64,000 nt of DNA from an uncultured delta proteobacterium (GCA_963828345.1 CAWHEZ010000004.1:64539-128538); one strand, 5' to 3'. Positions 3,869-49,753 are shown, numbered from the stretch's first letter. Notes: generated by a model not told the origin, from the sequence alone. Numbers and translations: made by a program.

Positions 3869-4074
3869 GCGGTCGCCTCTCCGCCCGGGCCTACTCGCCC
3901 GGATGGGACGGTTCGCGCCGCGTGAGCGCTTCAGCGTTTCCCGAGACCGGTCAGGTTCCGGGAGCCGACCGGCGACACCGGCGGCGATCCTGAAGAAATT
4001 CAAACCGCTTGAAAAAAACGACCGCTGCTGCGGTCGCACCACGTTTCACCATTAATTCAATGGGGGGGATAGAC

Positions 4075-5142
4075 ATGCACAGGTTAGTCATTGATCAAAA
4101 GACCATCGACGACACGACCGACTGTTATTCGATTGCGGAGATCGGGCACAACCATCAGGGCAAGGTGAAGACCTGTCTGGAGATGTTCAAGGTGGCCAAG
4201 GAGTGCGGGGCGGACGCGGTGAAGCTGCAGAAGCGCGACAACCGCAGCCTCTACACGGCCGCGGGCTATGCCAAGCCCTACGACAACGAGAACAGCTACG
4301 GGGCCACCTACGGGGAGCACCGCGAGGCGCTGGAGTTCGGGGAGAGCGAGTACCGGGAGCTGAAGGCCTACGCCAAGGAGATCGGGGTGACGATGTTCGC
4401 CACGGCCTTTGATTTCCCGAGCGTGGATTTTCTGGCCAAGCTGGACATGCCGGCCTACAAGGTGGCCTCGGGGGATTTGAAGAACACGCCGCTGCTGGCC
4501 TACATGGCGAAGGTGGGCAAGCCGATCGTCTTGAGCACGGGCGGGGGCACGATGGAGGACGTCAACCGGGCCTACGACACGATCATGCCGATCAACCCGC
4601 AGCTGTGCATCCTGCAGTGCACGGCGGGGTATCCGGCGGCCTTCGAGGAGTTGAACCTGCGGGTGATCACCACCTTCCGCGAGCGGTTTCCGCAGGCGGT
4701 GGTGGGGCTGTCCTCGCACGACAACGGGATTGCGATGGCGCTGGCGGCCTACCTGCTGGGGGCGCGGGTGGTGGAGAAGCACTTCACGCTGAACCACACC
4801 ATGAAGGGCACGGACCACGCCTTTTCGCTGGAGCCGATCGGGTTTCAGAAGATGGTGCGGGACCTCCGGCGGGTGCGCACGGCGCTGGGCGACGGGGTGA
4901 AGCGGGTGTACGACAGCGAGGTGACCCCGATGGTGAAGATGGGCAAGCAGCTGGTGGCGGCGCGGGATCTGCCGGCGGGGCACGCGATCCGGCGCGAGGA
5001 CATCGCCATCAAGTCGCCCGGGGGCGGTCTGCAGCCCTACGAGATCGACAAGGTCATCGGCCGCACCACGCGCGTGGCGCTCAAGGCCGACGACGCCTTC
5101 AGCTTCGAAACCCTCAACGGCGCCGGACCCCTGAAGAAGTAG
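4075..5142 (+). CDS. NeuB-family nonulosonic/sialic acid synthase with C-terminal SAF domain, closest in motif content to animal NANS-type (sugar-9-phosphate) synthases
   Basis: Motifs IAEIGHNHQG, ADAVKLQKR, YGATYGEHREALEF, ILQCTAGYP, LSSHDNG and KGTDHAFSLEP. Preferred start is ATG 4075, preceded by a G-rich RBS at 4062-4069; the ORF track starts at 4009. Confidence 0.9.
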   Translation: MHRLVIDQKTIDDTTDCYSIAEIGHNHQGKVKTCLEMFKVAKECGADAVKLQKRDNRSLYTAAGYAKPYDNENSYGATYGEHREALEFGESEYRELKAYAKEIGVTMFATAFDFPSVDFLAKLDMPAYKVASGDLKNTPLLAYMAKVGKPIVLSTGGGTMEDVNRAYDTIMPINPQLCILQCTAGYPAAFEELNLRVITTFRERFPQAVVGLSSHDNGIAMALAAYLLGARVVEKHFTLNHTMKGTDHAFSLEPIGFQKMVRDLRRVRTALGDGVKRVYDSEVTPMVKMGKQLVAARDLPAGHAIRREDIAIKSPGGGLQPYEIDKVIGRTTRVALKADDAFSFETLNGAGPLKK

Positions 5143-45551: not shown

Positions 45552-48500
45552 TCAGGCGACGTCCTCGAGGGCGGCGGCCACCTGCGCCTTCAGCTGCTCC
45601 TGCGTGAAGCCGTGGACGAAGACGCCGCCCTTCGGGCAGGTGGCCGCGCACAGGCCGCACCCCTTGCAGAGCGCCGCGTCGGTGCGGATGCGCCGGTGGG
45701 AGCGACCGTCCTCGCCCGGGTAGTCCTCCAGCGCGATGGCGCGGTAGGGGCAGACGTCCAGGCACAGCGCGCACCCGTCGCAGCTCTCCGTGACGCAGGA
45801 CTTGATGGCGTCGAGCGTCATCTCCGTCTGCGCGAGGATGCTCCCGGCCCGCACGGCGGCCGCCTTGGCCTGGGCGATCGTCTCGTCCATGGGCTTGGGG
45901 TAGTTGCAGAGGCCGGCGACGAACAGCCCGTCCACGGACATGTCCACCGGCCGCAGCTTCGGATGGGCCTCGTTGAGGAAGCCGTCGGCGTTGGCGGCGC
46001 ACTTGAAGAGCTCGACCAGGCCACGGCTTTCGCGCGGCTCGACCGCGGCGGCGAGCACGAGGTAATCCGCCGCAATGGCGAGCGGCAGCTGCAGGATGGG
46101 GTCGAAGACGTCGATCCGCAGGTCGCCGCCCTCGCGCCGGACGAGCGGCTTGCGCTCGAGCTCGTACCGGATGAAGATCACCCCCAGGTCGCGCGCCTTG
46201 CGGTAGAGACCTTCGCGCTCGCCGTAGGTGCGGATGTCGCGGTAGAGCACGTAGACGTTCATCTGCGGGTTGAGGCCCTTCAGCGCCGCGGCCGCCTTCA
46301 CGGCGTGCGTGCAGCAGATCCGGCTGCAGTAGGGGCGGTGCTCGTCGCGCGAGCCGACGCACTGGATGAAGGCCACACTCTGGGCGCGCTTCAGGGCGGC
46401 CGGGTCCTCGCGCAGCAGCCCGTCGAGCTCCAGGTGGGTCAGGACCCGGGGGTCCTCCCCGTAGAGGTACTCGGTCGGCTGAGACTCCTGGCCGCCGATG
46501 GCGAGCACGGCCGCCCCGTAGGCGACCTCGCGCTCCTGGCCGTCGACCTTGACCCGGCTGACGAAGCTGCCCACCGAGCCGGCGGTCGAGGCCAGCTCGG
46601 CCTTCTTGAGCACCTCGATGCGCGGGTGCCGCTCCACGGTCGCGATGAGGGATTCCAGGTGCGGCCGCACGGCCTCGCCCTGGTCGGTCGTGTTGATCCG
46701 CCAGGCGTTGCCGCCGAGCTGGGCGGACTGCTCCAGGAGGGTGGTCTGGAAGCCCTGCTCCGCCAGGCCCAGCGCGGAGTGCATGCCGGCCACCCCGCCG
46801 CCGATCACGAGCGCCTTGGGGATCACGTTGACCCGGCCGCTCGCGATCGGAGTGCTCAGCGCGGCCTTGGCGACCGCCATGCGCACCTGGTCCTTGGCCT
46901 TGGCGGTCGCCCGTTCCGGTTCGCGCTGGTGCACCCACGAGTTCTGATTGCGGATGTTGGCCATCTCGACCAGGTAGGGGTTGAGCGAGGACTCGCGCAG
47001 CGTGTCCTGGAAGAGCGGCTCGTGCGTGCGCGGCGTGCAGGCGGCGATGACGACGCGGTTCAGGCGGTGCTCGGAGATCTTCTTGCCCATGAGCTCCTGG
47101 GTGTCGGCCGAGCAGCTGAAGAGGTTGTTCTCCGCGAGCACGACCCCCGGCAGCGTGCGGGCGTACTTCACGACCTCGTCCACGTTGACGATTCCGGCGA
47201 TGTTGATGCCGCAGGAGCACACGAAGACGCCGATGCGCACCGGTTCGGCGCCTAAACTGCGCTCGGCCGGGTAGCTGCGGGTGCGCGTGAGCTCGCCGCG
47301 GGCGGCGATCAGGGTCGCGGCCGCCTCGCAGGCCGCGGTCGAGGCCTCGGCGACCGAACGCGGGATGGCCTTGGGGGCCTGGAAGGCGCCGGCCACGAAC
47401 ACGCCGGCCCGGTTGGTCGTCACCGGCGCGAAATCCGAGGTGCGCGCGAAACCGTACTCGTCGAGATCGAACTTGAAGACGCGCGCCAGTTCCTGGGCGT
47501 CGCCCGCGGGCTCGAGCCCGACCGACAGCACCGCCAGGTCGAACTCCTCGACCTTGACCTCTCCCTCGTCGGTGCTGTAGCGCATCGACACGCCGTGGTT
47601 GCCGGCCCCGGCCTCGATCGAGTGCGGACGGGCGCGGACGAAGCGCACGCCCTTGTCCTTGGCCCCCTCGTAGAAGCGGTCGAAGTCCTTGCCGTGGCTG
47701 CGGATGTCCATGAAGAAGATGGCCTGCTCCAGCCCGCCGCCGGAGGTGTGCTCCGCGGTCACGAGCGCCTCCTTGATCGCGTACATGCAGCAGACGCTCG
47801 AGCAGTAGCCGTTCTTGCACTGGTTGGTGTTGCGCGAGCCCACGCACTGGATCCAGGCGATGCGCCGCGGCTCCGTGCGGTCGGAGGGCCGCACCAGGTG
47901 CCCCATGCAGGGGCCGCTCGACGAGAGCAGCCGCTCGTACTCGAGGCTGGTGACCACGTCCGGGATGCGCTTGTAGCCGTAGAAATCGAACCCGGAGGGG
48001 TCGAAGGGCTTGAAGCCCGGGGCGAGGATCACCGCGCCGACGTTGAGCGTGGCCACCTCTTCCTTGTCCTCGAAGTTGATGGCCGAGGTGGGGCAGAACT
48101 TCTCGCAGGCCTTGCACTTGCCGCGGGTCAGGTAGATGCAGGTCTGGCCGTCGATCGCGTACTTCAGGGGCACGGACTGGCCGTACTTGATGTAGGCCGC
48201 TGTGCGGTCGTTCAGGCCCAGGTTGAACTCGTCACGGACCTTGCGGGGGCATTTCTGGGCGCAGAGGCCGCAGGCAATGCACTTGTCCATGTCGATGTAG
48301 CGGGGTTTCTTCTTGATCGTGACGGTGAAATTTCCGACGTCACCGGAGACGTCGACCACTTCGGACAGGGTGAGCAACTCCACATTCAGATGCCGGCCGA
48401 CCTCGACCAGTTTGGGTGAGATGATTCACATCGCGCAGTCGTTGGTCGGAAAGGTCTTGTCCAGCTGGGCCATCACGCCGCCGATCCCGGCGCTTTTCTC

Positions 48501-48605
48501 CACCAGATGGACGAAGTAACCCGAGTTGGCGAGGTCGAGGGTCGCCTGCATGCCGGCGATGCCTCCGCCAACCACCAATACGGAACCGATGGGTTTGCCT
48601 GACAT
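45552..48605 (-). CDS. hdrA: large HdrA-like flavoprotein with two tandem HdrA modules and in-frame UGA selenocysteine
   Basis: ATG 48605 with an AGAGGTG RBS. MSGKPIGSVLVVGGGIAGMQATLDLA...DKTFPTNDCAM-TGA-IISPKLVEVGRHLNVELL, with the TGA at 48426-48428. A second FAD module starts at KALVIGGGVAGMHSALGLA. Several CxxCxxCxxxCP ferredoxin motifs. 1,017 aa if read through. Confidence 0.85.
48393..48410 (-). promoter_or_regulatory. candidate SECIS hairpin for the hdrA UGA
   Basis: 15 nt after the UGA: CUGGUC-GAGGUC-GGCCGG (6-bp stem including two G-U pairs, loop containing GGUC). Confidence 0.55.
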
Positions 48606-48872
48606 AGTCACCTCTTTGGCCGTGGAATGAAGGGGGGGGGTGATGCGCGCATCACCCGGGAGGGGAACCGAGTTGGAAAGGACGATCTCCTGCATGACGG
48701 CGACCGGGATGAGTTGCTCGCGGCAGAACTCCGCGAACGCATCCTGCGCGATCATGTATTTCTTCCCGACGGTGGCGCTCGCCCGCAGCTTGCCGCTGCG
48801 GATCCAGTTGGTGACGGTGTTGCGGTGAACGCCGAGCTTTTCGGCGAGCTGTCCGACGCGGATTTCGATCAT
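48606..48872 (-). CDS. excisionase/MerR-like helix-turn-helix DNA-binding protein; in this assembly it has no stop codon and runs in frame into hdrA
   Basis: ATG 48872 with a GGAGG RBS, overlapping the protease stop (ATGA). MIEIRVGQLAEKLGVHRNTVTNWIRSGKLRA is a classic HTH. No stop occurs before the hdrA ATG at 48605. Removing one G from the G9 run (48632-48640) would create a TGA 2 nt before that ATG. Confidence 0.6.
48638..48657. promoter_or_regulatory. 20-bp perfect palindrome upstream of the hdrA start (candidate operator or RNA stem)
   Basis: GGGTGATGCGCGCATCACCC equals its own reverse complement. It lies 33-52 nt upstream of the hdrA ATG and overlaps the end of the G9 run. Confidence 0.6.
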
Positions 48873-49381
48873 GATTCCTCCGATGCATTTGGCGTGGGTC
48901 CGATGGCCGCCAGGATCCGGGCGCACATGGCCGGAATGGCCCGCTGCATGGGCTCGGACAGCCCGGGCCTCACCTCGGACGGCATGCCGGCCACCTGGGC
49001 GACGAACACGTTGATGTCGACCCGCGTTTCGTCCCGGATCTCCTTGAGCAGGTTGATGCCGGGGAACTGGTGCAGCGCGAAGTCGCAGCGCTTCTCGGGC
49101 CGGATCTGGTCGATGTCGATCTCGCAGATTTCCCCGGGGGTCATCGCACGGGAGTCGGTGACGTCGACGATGATGACCTGCCGCGGCTTGCGCGGTGAGA
49201 GGATGATGTCGAAGAGGATGTCGCGGATGGATGTGCCGCAGTCGATGAGGGCCACGGAGTCCGGCAAGGAGTGGTGCTCTTCGAGATGATGAATGACCGC
49301 CGGTCCGAACCCGTCATCTCCGATGAGGAGATTGCCGCAACCCAGAACGAGGCAATCGTATTCGGCGACCGGCTTGAGCAT
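48869..49381 (-). CDS. hydrogenase maturation endopeptidase (HycI/FrhD/HoxM family)
   Basis: LVLGCGNLLIGDDGFGPAV...LIDCGT and ALHQFPG motifs. Preferred start is ATG 49381 (MLKPVAEY); the track ORF uses TTG 49390. Confidence 0.8.
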   Translation of the reverse strand: MLKPVAEYDCLVLGCGNLLIGDDGFGPAVIHHLEEHHSLPDSVALIDCGTSIRDILFDIILSPRKPRQVIIVDVTDSRAMTPGEICEIDIDQIRPEKRCDFALHQFPGINLLKEIRDETRVDINVFVAQVAGMPSEVRPGLSEPMQRAIPAMCARILAAIGPTPNASEES

Positions 49382-49388
49382 GTTGTGC

Positions 49389-49418
49389 AAATTAGGCCAA
49401 AATCAAAAGCGCTGTCAA
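49389..49418 (-). promoter_or_regulatory. candidate sigma70-type promoter of the Hdr/Mvh operon (possibly leaderless)
   Basis: On the minus strand: TTGACA (49418-49413), 18-nt spacer, TAATTT (49394-49389). The ATG at 49381 lies 7 nt downstream and no Shine-Dalgarno is visible. Confidence 0.3.
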
Positions 49419-49753
49419 GCAGAATTTATGCGATCTGTGCAAAGCCCGGCCTCCGCTTTGTTTTATTGCTCAGCACTTTAGAAAAGCAAAAGTACACAGC
49501 CCGGCTATGATAAGTAGCTAAACAAATTGATATTATTTTTAATTTTTTATTATGAACCTCGTTTATTTTCAGAGTATATGTAAAAGTACTTCGAATCGAT
49601 CGTCAATGTTCGCATGCATTCAATTAAGGAAGGGGTGGGGATTGCATGGGATGAGCGCCGCGCAACACCGGCTCAATTTTAAGGCTCACCCCCGGCGCGC
49701 CGCCCCCCGACTCGCGGCTCGAGCCCTTGCCGGATAGCCGGTCATGCGGCCGA

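What the first reader, a model, noticed from the sequence alone, without database searches (positions are those of the whole stretch)
48606..48872. HTH DNA-binding domain reads into hdrA without a stop; the junction depends on a G9 homopolymer
A classic excisionase/MerR-like HTH (MIEIRVGQLAEKLGVHRNTVTNWIRSGKL) starts at ATG 48872 with its own GGAGG RBS, overlapping the protease stop. It continues in frame with no stop into the hdrA ATG at 48605, which has its own AGAGGTG RBS. The linker contains a run of nine G (48632-48640 on the plus strand). With eight G the HTH ORF would end at a TGA 2 nt before the hdrA ATG, giving a tidy separate 85-aa regulator gene. So this is one of three things: a regulator-HdrA fusion, a length-variable (slippage-prone) tract switching between fused and separate products, or a homopolymer miscall. 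A transcription-factor-like gene embedded between a hydrogenase protease and hdrA is notable in its own right.
Basis: seen in the sequence. Interest (0 to 1): 0.62.

Follow-up and report, generated by a model that had tools for sequence, protein, structure and literature searches.

The report
DNA-binding domain fused to HdrA
A small DNA-binding domain really is joined in frame to the front of the selenium-containing, electron-splitting enzyme subunit HdrA; the join is conserved in many sulfate-reducer genomes rather than caused by a nine-G sequencing slip, and the domain probably lets the enzyme switch its own hydrogenase operon.

Summary
ATG 48872 (minus strand, GGAGG in front) opens an HTH_17/excisionase-type winged helix-turn-helix. 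It runs without a stop through a C9 tract (G9 on the plus strand, 48632-48640) into hdrA at ATG 48605. C8 would give a TGA 2 nt before that ATG.

The fusion does not depend on the homopolymer. Of 49 species genomes carrying this HTH subtype, 48 have it in frame with HdrA. Their linkers come in at least 17 lengths and mostly lack any homopolymer. The Cys-type clade has no Met at the junction, so there the fusion is obligate.

Contigs from five independent DNA runs (plus two runs of unrecorded kind) cross the tract with no gap. A miscall is very unlikely. Slippage cannot be excluded, because only contigs were available.

The HTH models as a Xis/BldC-like fold on a disordered tether. Tandem 9-bp direct repeats (TnGCAYAAn) flank the -35 box and cover the -10 box of the operon promoter here and across genera. 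This matches BldC-type binding to 9-bp repeats.

Most likely this is an enzyme-tethered autoregulator of the protease-hdr-mvh operon. In the Sec clade an internal SD+ATG probably also gives HTH-less HdrA. I found no paper describing it.

The parts
49425..49442 (-). Candidate operator site 1: two tandem 9-bp direct repeats, TTGCACAGA TCGCATAAA, ending 6 nt upstream of the -35 box
   Evidence: Read. It is the top hit of a genome-wide PWM dimer scan (26.4 bits). It is an exact match to TNGCAYANNTNGCAYA. The same element sits at the same offset (about -570 from the HTH ATG) in relatives.
49413..49418 (-). -35-like hexamer TTGACA
   Evidence: Seen in the sequence and conserved in same-genus loci. 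The consensus scanner did not call it, because the -10 box is weak in this genome.
49382..49399 (-). Candidate operator site 2: TGGCCTAAT TTGCACAAC. It overlaps the -10-like TAATTT (49389-49394) and ends 1 nt before the protease ATG.
   Evidence: 20.5 bits; 1 mismatch. Relatives read TCGCATAAA TTGCACAAC at the same place.
48869..49381 (-). Hydrogenase maturation protease (HycI/FrhD type). It is the first gene of the operon, and its stop overlaps the HTH start (ATGA).
   Evidence: Pfam PF01750, E 1.4e-17. It lies directly upstream of the HTH-HdrA gene in most related loci.
48877..48881 (-). Shine-Dalgarno GGAGG of the long (HTH-HdrA) form
   Evidence: GGAGG is kept before the HTH ATG in the relatives (upstream 60 nt printed).
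48705..48872 (-). Winged helix-turn-helix domain (residues 1-56; HTH_17 / TIGR01764 'excise'; Xis/BldC-like)
   Evidence: AlphaFold gives pLDDT 84-88 with beta-alpha-alpha-beta-beta-alpha topology. Foldseek top hits are 4j2n, 6amk, 6ama and 5i44. Mean column identity is 79% over 119 homologues.
48606..48704 (-). Helix 4 (residues 57-68) plus a disordered Pro-rich linker (residues 69-89) tethering the HTH to HdrA
   Evidence: pLDDT is below 50 for residues 69-88 and 70-90 in the full-length model. Column identity is 33-35%. At least 17 different lengths occur among relatives, all in frame.
48632..48640 (-). C9 (G9 on the plus strand) homopolymer, encoding part of Thr-Pro-Pro-Leu
   Evidence: Logan contigs span it without gaps in DNA runs X2, X7, X5, X6 and X10, and in X39 and X40, whose kind is not on record. 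It is shared only with the nearest relative.
48638..48657 (.). Perfect 20-bp palindrome GGGTGATGCGCGCATCACCC inside the linker coding region; probably incidental
   Evidence: It is one of 50 perfect palindromes of 20 bp or more in the genome. Relatives keep only the ATGCGCAT core. The local RNA fold is not unusual (z = -0.25).
48609..48615 (-). Internal Shine-Dalgarno AGAGGTG before the hdrA ATG (48603-48605)
   Evidence: GAGGTG plus ATG is kept in 28 of 33 Sec-type loci although the linker around it is hypervariable. It is absent in the Cys-type clade.
45552..48605 (-). HdrA body (two HdrA-like modules, 1017 aa) with selenocysteine TGA at 48426-48428
   Evidence: NCBIfam HdrA/HdrA2 models align from profile position 141 onward. 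Full-length model pTM is 0.75.

Best explanation
The reading frame is real. The second gene of a protease-hdrA-mvhD-hdrCB-mvhGA operon encodes one polypeptide. It consists of an N-terminal Xis/BldC-type winged-HTH domain (about 56 aa), a short helix, a disordered Pro-rich tether of about 20 aa, and then a selenocysteine-containing double-module HdrA. The G9/C9 tract is just the Pro codons of that tether in this lineage; it is correctly assembled and is not what makes the fusion.

Shown: the fusion is a conserved architecture of Desulfobacterales and some Desulfovibrionales. Inferred: the HTH arm(s) of the (presumably dimeric) HdrA bind tandem 9-bp direct repeats (TnGCAYAAn) that flank the -35 box and cover the -10/+1 region of the operon's own promoter. 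The bifurcating enzyme would thereby feed back on synthesis of its hydrogenase partner and of itself, as a trigger enzyme in the manner of PutA.

In the Sec-type clade, including this window, a conserved internal SD+ATG most likely also yields HTH-less HdrA. Cells would then hold a mixture of tethered and untethered subunits.

Sub-confidences: the fusion is real and G9 is correct, about 0.93; the HTH binds the 9-bp repeats and autoregulates, about 0.55-0.6; there is an internal second start, about 0.7.
For: (1) Frame conservation. All nine same-genus loci, and one locus from another family, have the HTH in frame with HdrA despite different linkers. In 49 species genomes found with the HTH alone as query, every HTH lies directly before HdrA. 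In 48 of them there is no stop between the two, with at least 17 different linker lengths.

(2) Public ORFs. At least 119 clusters of 133-159 aa combine HTH_17 with the first 59 aa of HdrA and are cut at the Sec TGA; they are named 'excisionase family DNA binding protein'. Full-length fusions of 1096-1138 aa occur where Sec is Cys; they are named 'FAD-dependent oxidoreductase' or 'heterodisulfide reductase subunit A'. 13 of 17 Cys-type loci have no Met at the junction, so the fusion is obligate there.

(3) G9. Gap-free contigs come from DNA runs X2, X5, X6, X7 and X10, plus X39 and X40 of unrecorded kind. Several carry SNPs and are therefore other strains. The nearest species (93% aa identity) has the same C9.

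(4) Fold. pLDDT is 84-88 for the HTH and below 50 for the linker, both alone and in the full-length model. The best PDB matches are all DNA binders: Pukovnik Xis, BldC-DNA complexes, RacA and MerR-family proteins.

(5) Cis element. The pattern T.GCA[CT]A..T.GCA[CT]A occurs 41 times in 364 kb of 50 loci, always 200-900 nt upstream of the HTH ATG, against 0 for the reversed control. In this 4.4-Mb genome, the best and third-best of only 4 dimer hits are at this promoter. In the window there are 2 hits against 0.26 expected. The element also sits in the shared intergenic region where the hydrogenase genes are divergent. BldC binds 9-bp direct repeats head to tail (PMC5859096).

(6) The operon is transcribed in sediment metatranscriptomes, with nothing laid in the 49422-49727 gap.
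Against: There is no experimental evidence for DNA binding, for the long protein, or for the internal start.

The link between the HTH and the repeats rests on co-location only. Congeners without the HTH lack the whole operon, so presence/absence cannot separate this HTH from some other regulator. In this window the first unit of site 2 is degenerate (TGGCCTAAT) and the -10 box is weak. Eighteen of 50 loci have no strict tandem pair; some are cut short upstream.

A winged HTH can also be a protein interface in HdrA-type complexes, as in BamF (bioRxiv 10.64898/2026.04.10.717634).

Only assembled contigs, not reads, could be laid. Unitigs of three RNA-type runs and one DNA run stop at the tract, so length heterogeneity is not excluded.

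One relative has the HTH as a separate 64-aa ORF (L013/L040).
Confidence: 0.62

Rival explanations
1. The winged HTH is a structural or protein-docking module of the Mvh-Hdr complex. It would take the place of the N-terminal domain of archaeal HdrA and would not bind DNA. The 9-bp repeats would then be the site of a different, unlinked regulator.
For: HdrA family models align only from profile position 141, so the HTH plus linker sit where archaeal HdrA has its N-terminal domain. BamF of class II benzoyl-CoA reductase uses a winged HTH as an interface in an HdrA-type complex. The HTH-repeat link is only co-location.
Against: The domain hangs on a predicted disordered, hypervariable tether of 30-65 residues, which is unusual for a fixed structural module. 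The recognition helix and wing (GVHRNTVTNW, GKKY) are nearly invariant, and domain pI is 9.9. All close structural neighbours are DNA binders. One genome keeps the HTH as a free 64-aa protein. A repeat of matching 9-bp period sits at the operon's promoter and almost nowhere else in the genome.
Confidence: 0.22
2. The C9 tract is a slippage-prone switch, acting in DNA (phase variation) or in RNA (transcriptional slippage). It would toggle between a fused HTH-HdrA (C9) and a free 87-aa HTH plus HdrA started at its own SD (C8).
For: Both outcomes are viable by sequence. The tract is one of only 16 G/C runs of 9 or more in the genome, a class about 17-fold depleted. Unitigs stop at or in the tract in RNA-type runs X25, X27 and X28 and in DNA run X3.
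Against: No contig with G8 or G10 appeared in any run laid. The tract is lineage-specific and relatives manage without it. It has stayed C9 across two species and several strains. Unitig breaks at low depth (2-5x) and G-run sequencing dropout explain the stops equally well.
Confidence: 0.07
3. Homopolymer miscall: the true sequence is G8, and the HTH is a separate small regulator gene ending 2 nt before hdrA.
For: C8 would give a tidy gene boundary with a stop 2 nt before an ATG that has its own SD. One relative (L040) does have separate genes.
Against: Independent assemblies of five DNA runs, plus two of unrecorded kind, give G9 without gaps; some carry flanking SNPs. 48 of 49 related species have the in-frame fusion without any homopolymer.
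Confidence: 0.02

Closest known systems
BldC of Streptomyces (PDB 6amk, 6ama; PMC5859096)
   Same: It is a small MerR-like/excisionase-type winged HTH. It is among the best fold matches (TM 0.65-0.70 on the target, rmsd 2.2-2.6 A over about 49 residues) and sequence matches. BldC binds 9-bp direct repeats head to tail in variable numbers, the same period as the repeats at this promoter.
   Different: BldC is a free 68-aa protein with a large regulon. Here the domain is the N-terminus of a 1106-aa redox enzyme, and the repeat is essentially confined to its own operon. The BldC residue aligned as the base-reading Arg (TVTRW) is an invariant Asn here (TVTNW). The repeat consensus differs: TnGCAYAAn against AATTxxxx(C).
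Excisionases / recombination directionality factors (mycobacteriophage Pukovnik Xis gp37, PDB 4j2n; NCBIfam TIGR01764)
   Same: It is the best sequence match (E 1e-4 with the profile) and the best fold match. It passes the TIGR01764 cutoff, which is why databases name the truncated ORF 'excisionase family DNA-binding protein'.
   Different: There is no integrase, att site or mobile-element context. It holds a conserved position inside a hydrogenase/Hdr operon in 25 of 174 sampled genera of the order and is fused to an enzyme.
PutA (proline utilisation A) and other 'trigger enzymes' (BirA, NadR); established knowledge, not tested here
   Same: PutA is a flavoenzyme with an N-terminal DNA-binding domain on a flexible linker. 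In PutA that domain represses the enzyme's own operon and is released according to the redox state of the flavin. This is what I propose the HTH-HdrA fusion works like.
   Different: PutA uses a ribbon-helix-helix domain and membrane binding. The enzyme chemistry is different. No redox dependence or repression has been shown for HTH-HdrA.
HdrA of MvhADG-HdrABC of methanogens (PDB 5ODC), and Sec-HdrA1 next to mvhADG in Desulfobacterium autotrophicum (PMC2702500)
   Same: They share the FAD Rossmann motif, the C-x-M-C/U motif, ferredoxin domains, and the neighbouring mvhD, hdrC/B-like, mvhG and mvhA genes.
   Different: The roughly 140-residue N-terminal domain of archaeal HdrA is missing and is replaced by the HTH plus tether. 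There is a second HdrA-like module. It falls below the curated NCBIfam HdrA cutoffs (950 bits against 1100). No HTH is mentioned in the D. autotrophicum paper.
BamF adaptor of class II benzoyl-CoA reductase (bioRxiv 10.64898/2026.04.10.717634)
   Same: It has a winged HTH motif inside an HdrA-type electron-bifurcating complex.
   Different: There the motif is part of an MvhD-like adaptor and serves as a protein interface. Here it is an excisionase-type domain on a disordered tether at the N-terminus of HdrA.
HdrR of Methanosarcina barkeri (PMC11218639; title and abstract only)
   Same: It is a transcription factor dedicated to a heterodisulfide reductase operon.
   Different: It is a separate protein in an archaeon and is not fused to the enzyme.

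Membership tests
HTH_17 / excisionase-type wHTH (Pfam PF12728, NCBIfam TIGR01764) | Profile match above the curated cutoff | tested here: met
   PF12728 scores 44.9 bits against 27. TIGR01764 scores 37.8 bits against 28.8.
HTH_17 / excisionase-type wHTH (Pfam PF12728, NCBIfam TIGR01764) | Winged-helix fold (beta-alpha-alpha-beta-beta-alpha) like Xis/BldC/MerR N-domains | tested here: met
   This is a predicted model only: pLDDT 84-88. Foldseek top hits are 4j2n, 6amk, 6ama and 5i44, with probability 0.98-1.00.
BldC family (stand-alone MerR-like wHTH regulators) | Small protein made of the wHTH only, with no other domain | tested here: not met
   The domain is fused to a 1017-aa HdrA in 48 of 49 species. 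Only L040 has a free 64-aa form.
BldC family (stand-alone MerR-like wHTH regulators) | Cooperative head-to-tail binding to tandem 9-bp direct repeats | not testable with these tools
   Circumstantial only: tandem 9-bp repeats at the operon promoter across genera.
HdrA (heterodisulfide reductase subunit A family) | FAD Rossmann motif, Cys/Sec motif, ferredoxin-type clusters, and hdr/mvh gene neighbours | tested here: met
   Pfam Pyr_redox_2 and Fer4 domains. NDCAM-U-IISPK motif. Neighbouring mvhD, hdrC, CCG-domain hdrB, mvhG and mvhA genes.
HdrA (heterodisulfide reductase subunit A family) | Score above the curated equivalog cutoff, with the full-length archaeal architecture including the N-terminal domain | tested here: not met
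   Scores are 950 bits against 1100 (HdrA2) and 727 against 1400 (HdrA). The alignments start at profile position 141. It is therefore HdrA-like, not an equivalog.
Trigger enzymes of the PutA type | DNA-binding domain covalently joined to a flavoenzyme | tested here: met
Trigger enzymes of the PutA type | Operator in the enzyme's own promoter, bound by that domain | tested here: inconclusive
   A conserved candidate operator was found. Binding was not tested.
Trigger enzymes of the PutA type | DNA binding switched by substrate or redox state | not testable with these tools
   Requires biochemistry.
Homopolymer contingency (phase-variable) locus | Tract length differs between reads, strains or samples | tested here: inconclusive
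   Every contig that crosses the tract does so without a gap, in seven runs. However, contigs drop rare variants, and four unitig sets stop at the tract. No raw reads were on offer.
Homopolymer contingency (phase-variable) locus | Tract kept at this place in relatives | tested here: not met
   Only the nearest species has C9. The other same-genus loci have mixed Pro/Ser/Thr codons there.

The most novel reading that the evidence does not exclude
The whole Mvh-Hdr electron-bifurcating complex is itself a hydrogen/redox-sensing transcription factor. The two tethered HTH arms of an HdrA dimer would sit on the 9-bp direct repeats at the hydrogenase/hdr promoter. They would be released or engaged according to the flavin/FeS redox state or to assembly with Mvh, so that enzyme activity directly sets the synthesis of its own hydrogenase. 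In the Sec clade the ratio of tethered to untethered HdrA would be set by the internal start. In this lineage it might also be tuned by slippage at the C9 tract.
Probability: 0.2. Interest if true: 0.85.

Novelty: new variant of a known kind. Interest (0 to 1): 0.6.

Why it matters
Flavin-based electron bifurcation by Hdr/Mvh-type complexes is central to energy conservation in anaerobes, yet almost nothing is known about how sulfate reducers regulate these operons. A DNA-binding domain carried by the bifurcating subunit itself, with a matching conserved operator at its own promoter, would be a direct and testable link between the state of an energy-converting enzyme and gene expression. It would be a new example of the trigger-enzyme principle.

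There is also a practical point. The selenocysteine TGA cuts the ORF after 148 aa, so hundreds of database entries call this gene an 'excisionase family DNA-binding protein'. That hides both the HdrA and the fusion, and it could be mistaken for a mobile-element marker.

Tried and rejected
1. Palindrome 48638-48657 as the operator or as a regulatory RNA hairpin. It is not kept in relatives beyond the nearest one. It is one of 50 perfect palindromes of 20 bp or more in the genome. The RNA fold of the region is ordinary (z = -0.25). It does not resemble the conserved repeats.

2. Reading TTGCAC-N3-TTGCAT as a sigma-54 promoter. The GG of the -24 element is missing, the spacing is 2 nt too short, and a TTGACA/-10 pair lies beside it (sequence).

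3. Looking for a wider regulon. A PWM dimer scan of the whole genome gave only this promoter plus two weak sites. One of these (C38:10113) lies at the 3' end of an unrelated gene.

4. Co-occurrence test of motif and HTH in relatives. This was uninformative. Exact-pattern hits outside the operon are at the level of the reversed control, and HTH-less congeners lack the orthologous protease/operon altogether.

5. Transcription start from RNA runs. Only assembled contigs are kept, so no ends are available.

6. The consensus promoter scanner does not call the -35/-10 pair in this window.

7. Weaker HTH hits (E 1e-11 to 1e-17) in the order are unrelated HTH_17 proteins (receiver-domain or Cys-rich/PAS-like partners) and carry no repeats.

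8. HTH_17 paralogues in this genome (L002-L004) are unrelated.

9. Four literature searches for HdrA combined with an HTH, excisionase, MerR or DNA-binding domain found no description of the fusion.

Full report
**Observation.** On the minus strand the sequence reads GGAGGAATC-ATG (ATG at 48872). The ATG overlaps the TGA of the upstream ORF (ATGA). The frame then runs MIEIRVGQLAEKLGVHRNTVTNWIRSGKL... without a stop through CACCCCCCCCCTTC (C9 = 48640-48632) and AAAGAGGTGACT to ATG 48605 (MSGKPIGSVLVVGGGIAG...). The frame next meets TGA at 48428-48426 inside NDCAM-TGA-IISPK, the known Cys/Sec position of HdrA. Read as Sec, the frame goes on to 45552, giving 1106 aa. Pfam calls HTH_17 on residues 6-52 and HdrA-type FAD/ferredoxin domains on the rest. 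The upstream ORF is a HycI-type hydrogenase maturation protease.

**Context.** The minus-strand order is:
- hrpB helicase (52312-49754);
- an AT-rich gap;
- protease (49381-48869);
- HTH-hdrA (48872-45552);
- a short MvhD-type ORF;
- an HdrC-like dicluster ORF and a CCG-domain HdrB-like ORF;
- NiFe hydrogenase small and large subunits (43478-41210).

The genome is a 51-contig, 4.4-Mb, 66% GC assembly. Its relatives in public records are named Desulfobacterales or 'uncultured Desulfatibacillum sp.'.

**Is the fusion an accident of the homopolymer? No.**
- With the HTH alone as query, nine other genomes of the same genus and one of another family have the HTH in frame with HdrA and no stop. Their linkers differ in sequence and length. 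Only the nearest species (93% aa identity) shares the C9. The others read, for example, ATCGCCCCAACCCC or ACCCCCTCAAGCCC at that place.
- A scan of one genome per species with an HTH-only profile returned 49 strong loci. The named genera are Desulfatibacillum, Desulfosudis, Desulfococcus, Desulfatitalea, Desulfobacula, Desulfocicer, Desulfotignum, Desulfamplus and Desulfothermus, plus Desulfohalobiaceae. In all 49 the HTH lies directly before HdrA. In 48 there is no stop between them. The Rossmann motif starts anywhere from residue 96 to 127, in at least 17 different fused lengths, all multiples of three apart. Only L040 (the same locus as L013) has three stops and a separate 64-aa HTH.
- In a sample of 401 species of the order, 37 carry this HTH, in 25 of 174 genera.
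- In the protein database the top 119 clusters matching the 148-aa ORF are all HTH_17 plus the HdrA N-terminus cut at the Sec codon. They are named 'excisionase family DNA binding protein'.
- Where the Sec is a Cys, gene callers give full-length 1096-1138-aa HTH-HdrA proteins, named 'FAD-dependent oxidoreductase' or 'heterodisulfide reductase subunit A'.

**Is G9 correctly called?** Only Logan contigs, not reads, were on offer.
- Contigs crossing 48632-48640 with no gap were found in DNA runs X2 (2 SNPs), X7 (two overlapping contigs, 4 SNPs), X5, X6 (depth 25) and X10 (a SNP at the base next to the run). Gap-free contigs were also found in X39 and X40, whose kind is not on record.
- X8 holds a relative whose linker is 9 nt longer, again in frame.
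- No contig showed G8 or G10.
- Unitigs of DNA run X3 and of RNA-type runs X25, X27 and X28 stop at or inside the run. At depths of 2-5x, and given the known weakness of sequencing at G runs, this proves nothing. It is the one observation that keeps slippage alive.
- G/C runs of 9 or more are rare in this genome: 16, against about 270 expected.

**Two kinds of junction.** In Sec-type loci the otherwise hypervariable linker ends in a nearly invariant E-V-x-M-S, which at the DNA level is GAGGTG-N3-ATG. 28 of 33 Sec-type loci have an SD plus Met there. In Cys-type loci 13 of 17 have no Met and the remaining 4 have no SD. Column identity across the regions is as follows:

| Region | Column identity |
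|---|---|
| HTH | 79% |
| Linker | 33-35% |
| Junction | 77% |
| HdrA start | 91% |

I infer that the Cys clade makes only the fusion. The Sec clade, including this window, makes the fusion (from the GGAGG-ATG at 48872, an SD kept in relatives) and also HTH-less HdrA from the internal start.

**What is the domain?**
- AlphaFold with 119 homologues gives a confident beta-alpha-alpha-beta-beta-alpha winged helix (pLDDT 84-88), a fourth helix, and a linker with pLDDT below 50 (residues 69-88). The full-length model (pTM 0.75) shows the same low-confidence linker at residues 70-90.
- Foldseek against the PDB puts Pukovnik Xis (4j2n), BldC-DNA complexes (6amk, 6ama), RacA-DNA and MerR-family regulators on top. 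Profile and sequence searches agree. All of these are DNA binders.
- The recognition helix GVHRNTVTNW and the wing G-K-K-Y are nearly invariant. The domain pI is 9.9.
- The BldC residue aligned with the invariant Asn22 is the Arg of TVTRW. By the paper's numbering I take this to be the base-reading Arg30. That would mean a different specificity, which is inference.
- HdrA family models align only from profile position 141. The HTH plus tether therefore stand where archaeal HdrA has its N-terminal domain.

**A candidate operator.**
- Aligning the DNA upstream of the protease gene in same-genus loci showed a conserved promoter: TTGACA, 17-18 nt, then TAAATT / TATATT / TAATTT, 7 nt before the protease ATG. 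It is framed by tandem 9-bp direct repeats. TTGCACAnn TTGCATAAn lies just upstream of the -35 box, and TCGCATAAA TTGCACAAC lies over the -10 box up to the ATG. In this window these are 49425-49442 and 49382-49399.
- The same units (TnGCAYAAn, two to four in tandem, period 9) recur at the equivalent place in other families. They include the Desulfohalobiaceae in inverted orientation. They also occur in the shared intergenic region of the Cys-type loci, where the hydrogenase genes are transcribed divergently.
- The pair pattern T.GCA[CT]A..T.GCA[CT]A occurs 41 times in 364 kb of 50 loci. Every occurrence is 200-900 nt upstream of the HTH ATG. The reversed control gives 0.
- In the whole 4.4-Mb genome a PWM dimer scan gives four hits, and the first and third are this promoter. 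In the window there are 2 hits against 0.26 expected.
- BldC binds 9-bp direct repeats head to tail in variable numbers (PMC5859096). The match of fold class and repeat period, and the fact that the HTH is the only DNA-binding domain in the operon, make HTH-HdrA the obvious candidate binder. A site over the -10/+1 region suggests repression.
- This step is inferred. Congeners without the HTH lack the whole operon, so co-occurrence cannot exclude another regulator.

**Expression.** Sediment and soil metatranscriptome contigs cover the protease, the HTH and the hdrA start. Nothing is laid in the 49422-49727 gap, which fits a promoter near 49380-49420.

**The palindrome.** It is kept only in the nearest species. 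It is one of 50 such palindromes in the genome and gives no unusual RNA fold. I treat it as incidental to the codons of P-G-D-A-R-I-T-P.

**Literature and earlier notes.** Four searches found no paper describing an HTH on HdrA. The D. autotrophicum genome paper describes the equivalent Sec-HdrA1/mvhADG cluster without it. A preprint describes a winged HTH used as a protein interface in BamF of an HdrA-type complex, which is the main rival reading. After I had derived the repeats myself, the scan's own notes showed that other agents had reported the same fusion and 9-bp repeats in other genomes, and HTH fusions to HdrD-like subunits. I did not verify the HdrD cases.

**Verdict.** This is a real, conserved domain fusion and not a homopolymer artefact. 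The G9 run is a lineage-specific detail of a disordered linker. The most likely function is tethered autoregulation of the hydrogenase/Hdr operon through 9-bp direct repeats. An HTH-less HdrA isoform probably comes from an internal start in the Sec clade.

Noticed in passing
window 49379-49418 (minus strand): The -10-like hexamer ends 7 nt before the protease ATG and there is no Shine-Dalgarno, so the first gene of the operon looks leaderless. GCACAAC-ATG directly after the -10 box is kept in all same-genus loci.
   Followed up: partly
L040 / L013 (G027, MAG Desulfobacterales MO_071.B1), locus positions about 3998-4310: This is the only relative in which the HTH is a separate 64-aa ORF. Three in-frame stops and an AT-rich spacer precede an hdrA with its own SD. 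It is either the ancestral state or a secondary split, and it shows the HTH can exist untethered.
   Followed up: partly
L044, L046, L049, L051, L058, L062, L064, L065: In Cys-type (Desulfobacula-like) loci the Mvh hydrogenase genes are transcribed divergently from HTH-hdrA. The shared intergenic region carries three repeat units with spacings of 9 and 16 nt on the hydrogenase strand.
   Followed up: partly
whole genome G000: G/C homopolymers of 9 or more are about 17-fold depleted (16 found, about 270 expected from composition). The run in the HTH-HdrA linker is one of the 16.
   Followed up: yes
window 45552-48605: HdrA has two tandem HdrA-like FAD modules (second Rossmann motif at residues about 686-720 of the fusion) and a terminal 2x[4Fe-4S] domain. 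It scores below the curated NCBIfam HdrA cutoffs and lacks the archaeal N-terminal domain.
   Followed up: partly
G000 C38:10113-10130 (minus strand): The second-best genomic match to the repeat dimer (TTGGACAGT TTGCATAAA, then TATG) lies at the 3' end of a plus-strand ORF that ends in a Fis-type HTH. It is probably chance.
   Followed up: partly
window 48599-48640, runs X25, X27, X28, X3: Unitigs of three RNA-type runs and one DNA run end at or inside the G9 run, while seven other runs cross it. The cause could be low depth, G-run sequencing dropout or length heterogeneity. It is unresolved.
   Followed up: partly
L037 (MAG Deltaproteobacteria WY5.bin12): Just after the Sec TGA the HdrA frame breaks off (IIWVGKL*...), and no further HdrA match is found in the locus. 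This is probably an assembly join or a disrupted gene.
   Followed up: no
same-genus genomes G003, G005, G007, G010, G019, G020, G023: These congeners lack the orthologous protease-HTH-hdrA operon; their best protease hits are only 32-39% identical. The operon is therefore an accessory unit, present in roughly a third of the genus.
   Followed up: partly
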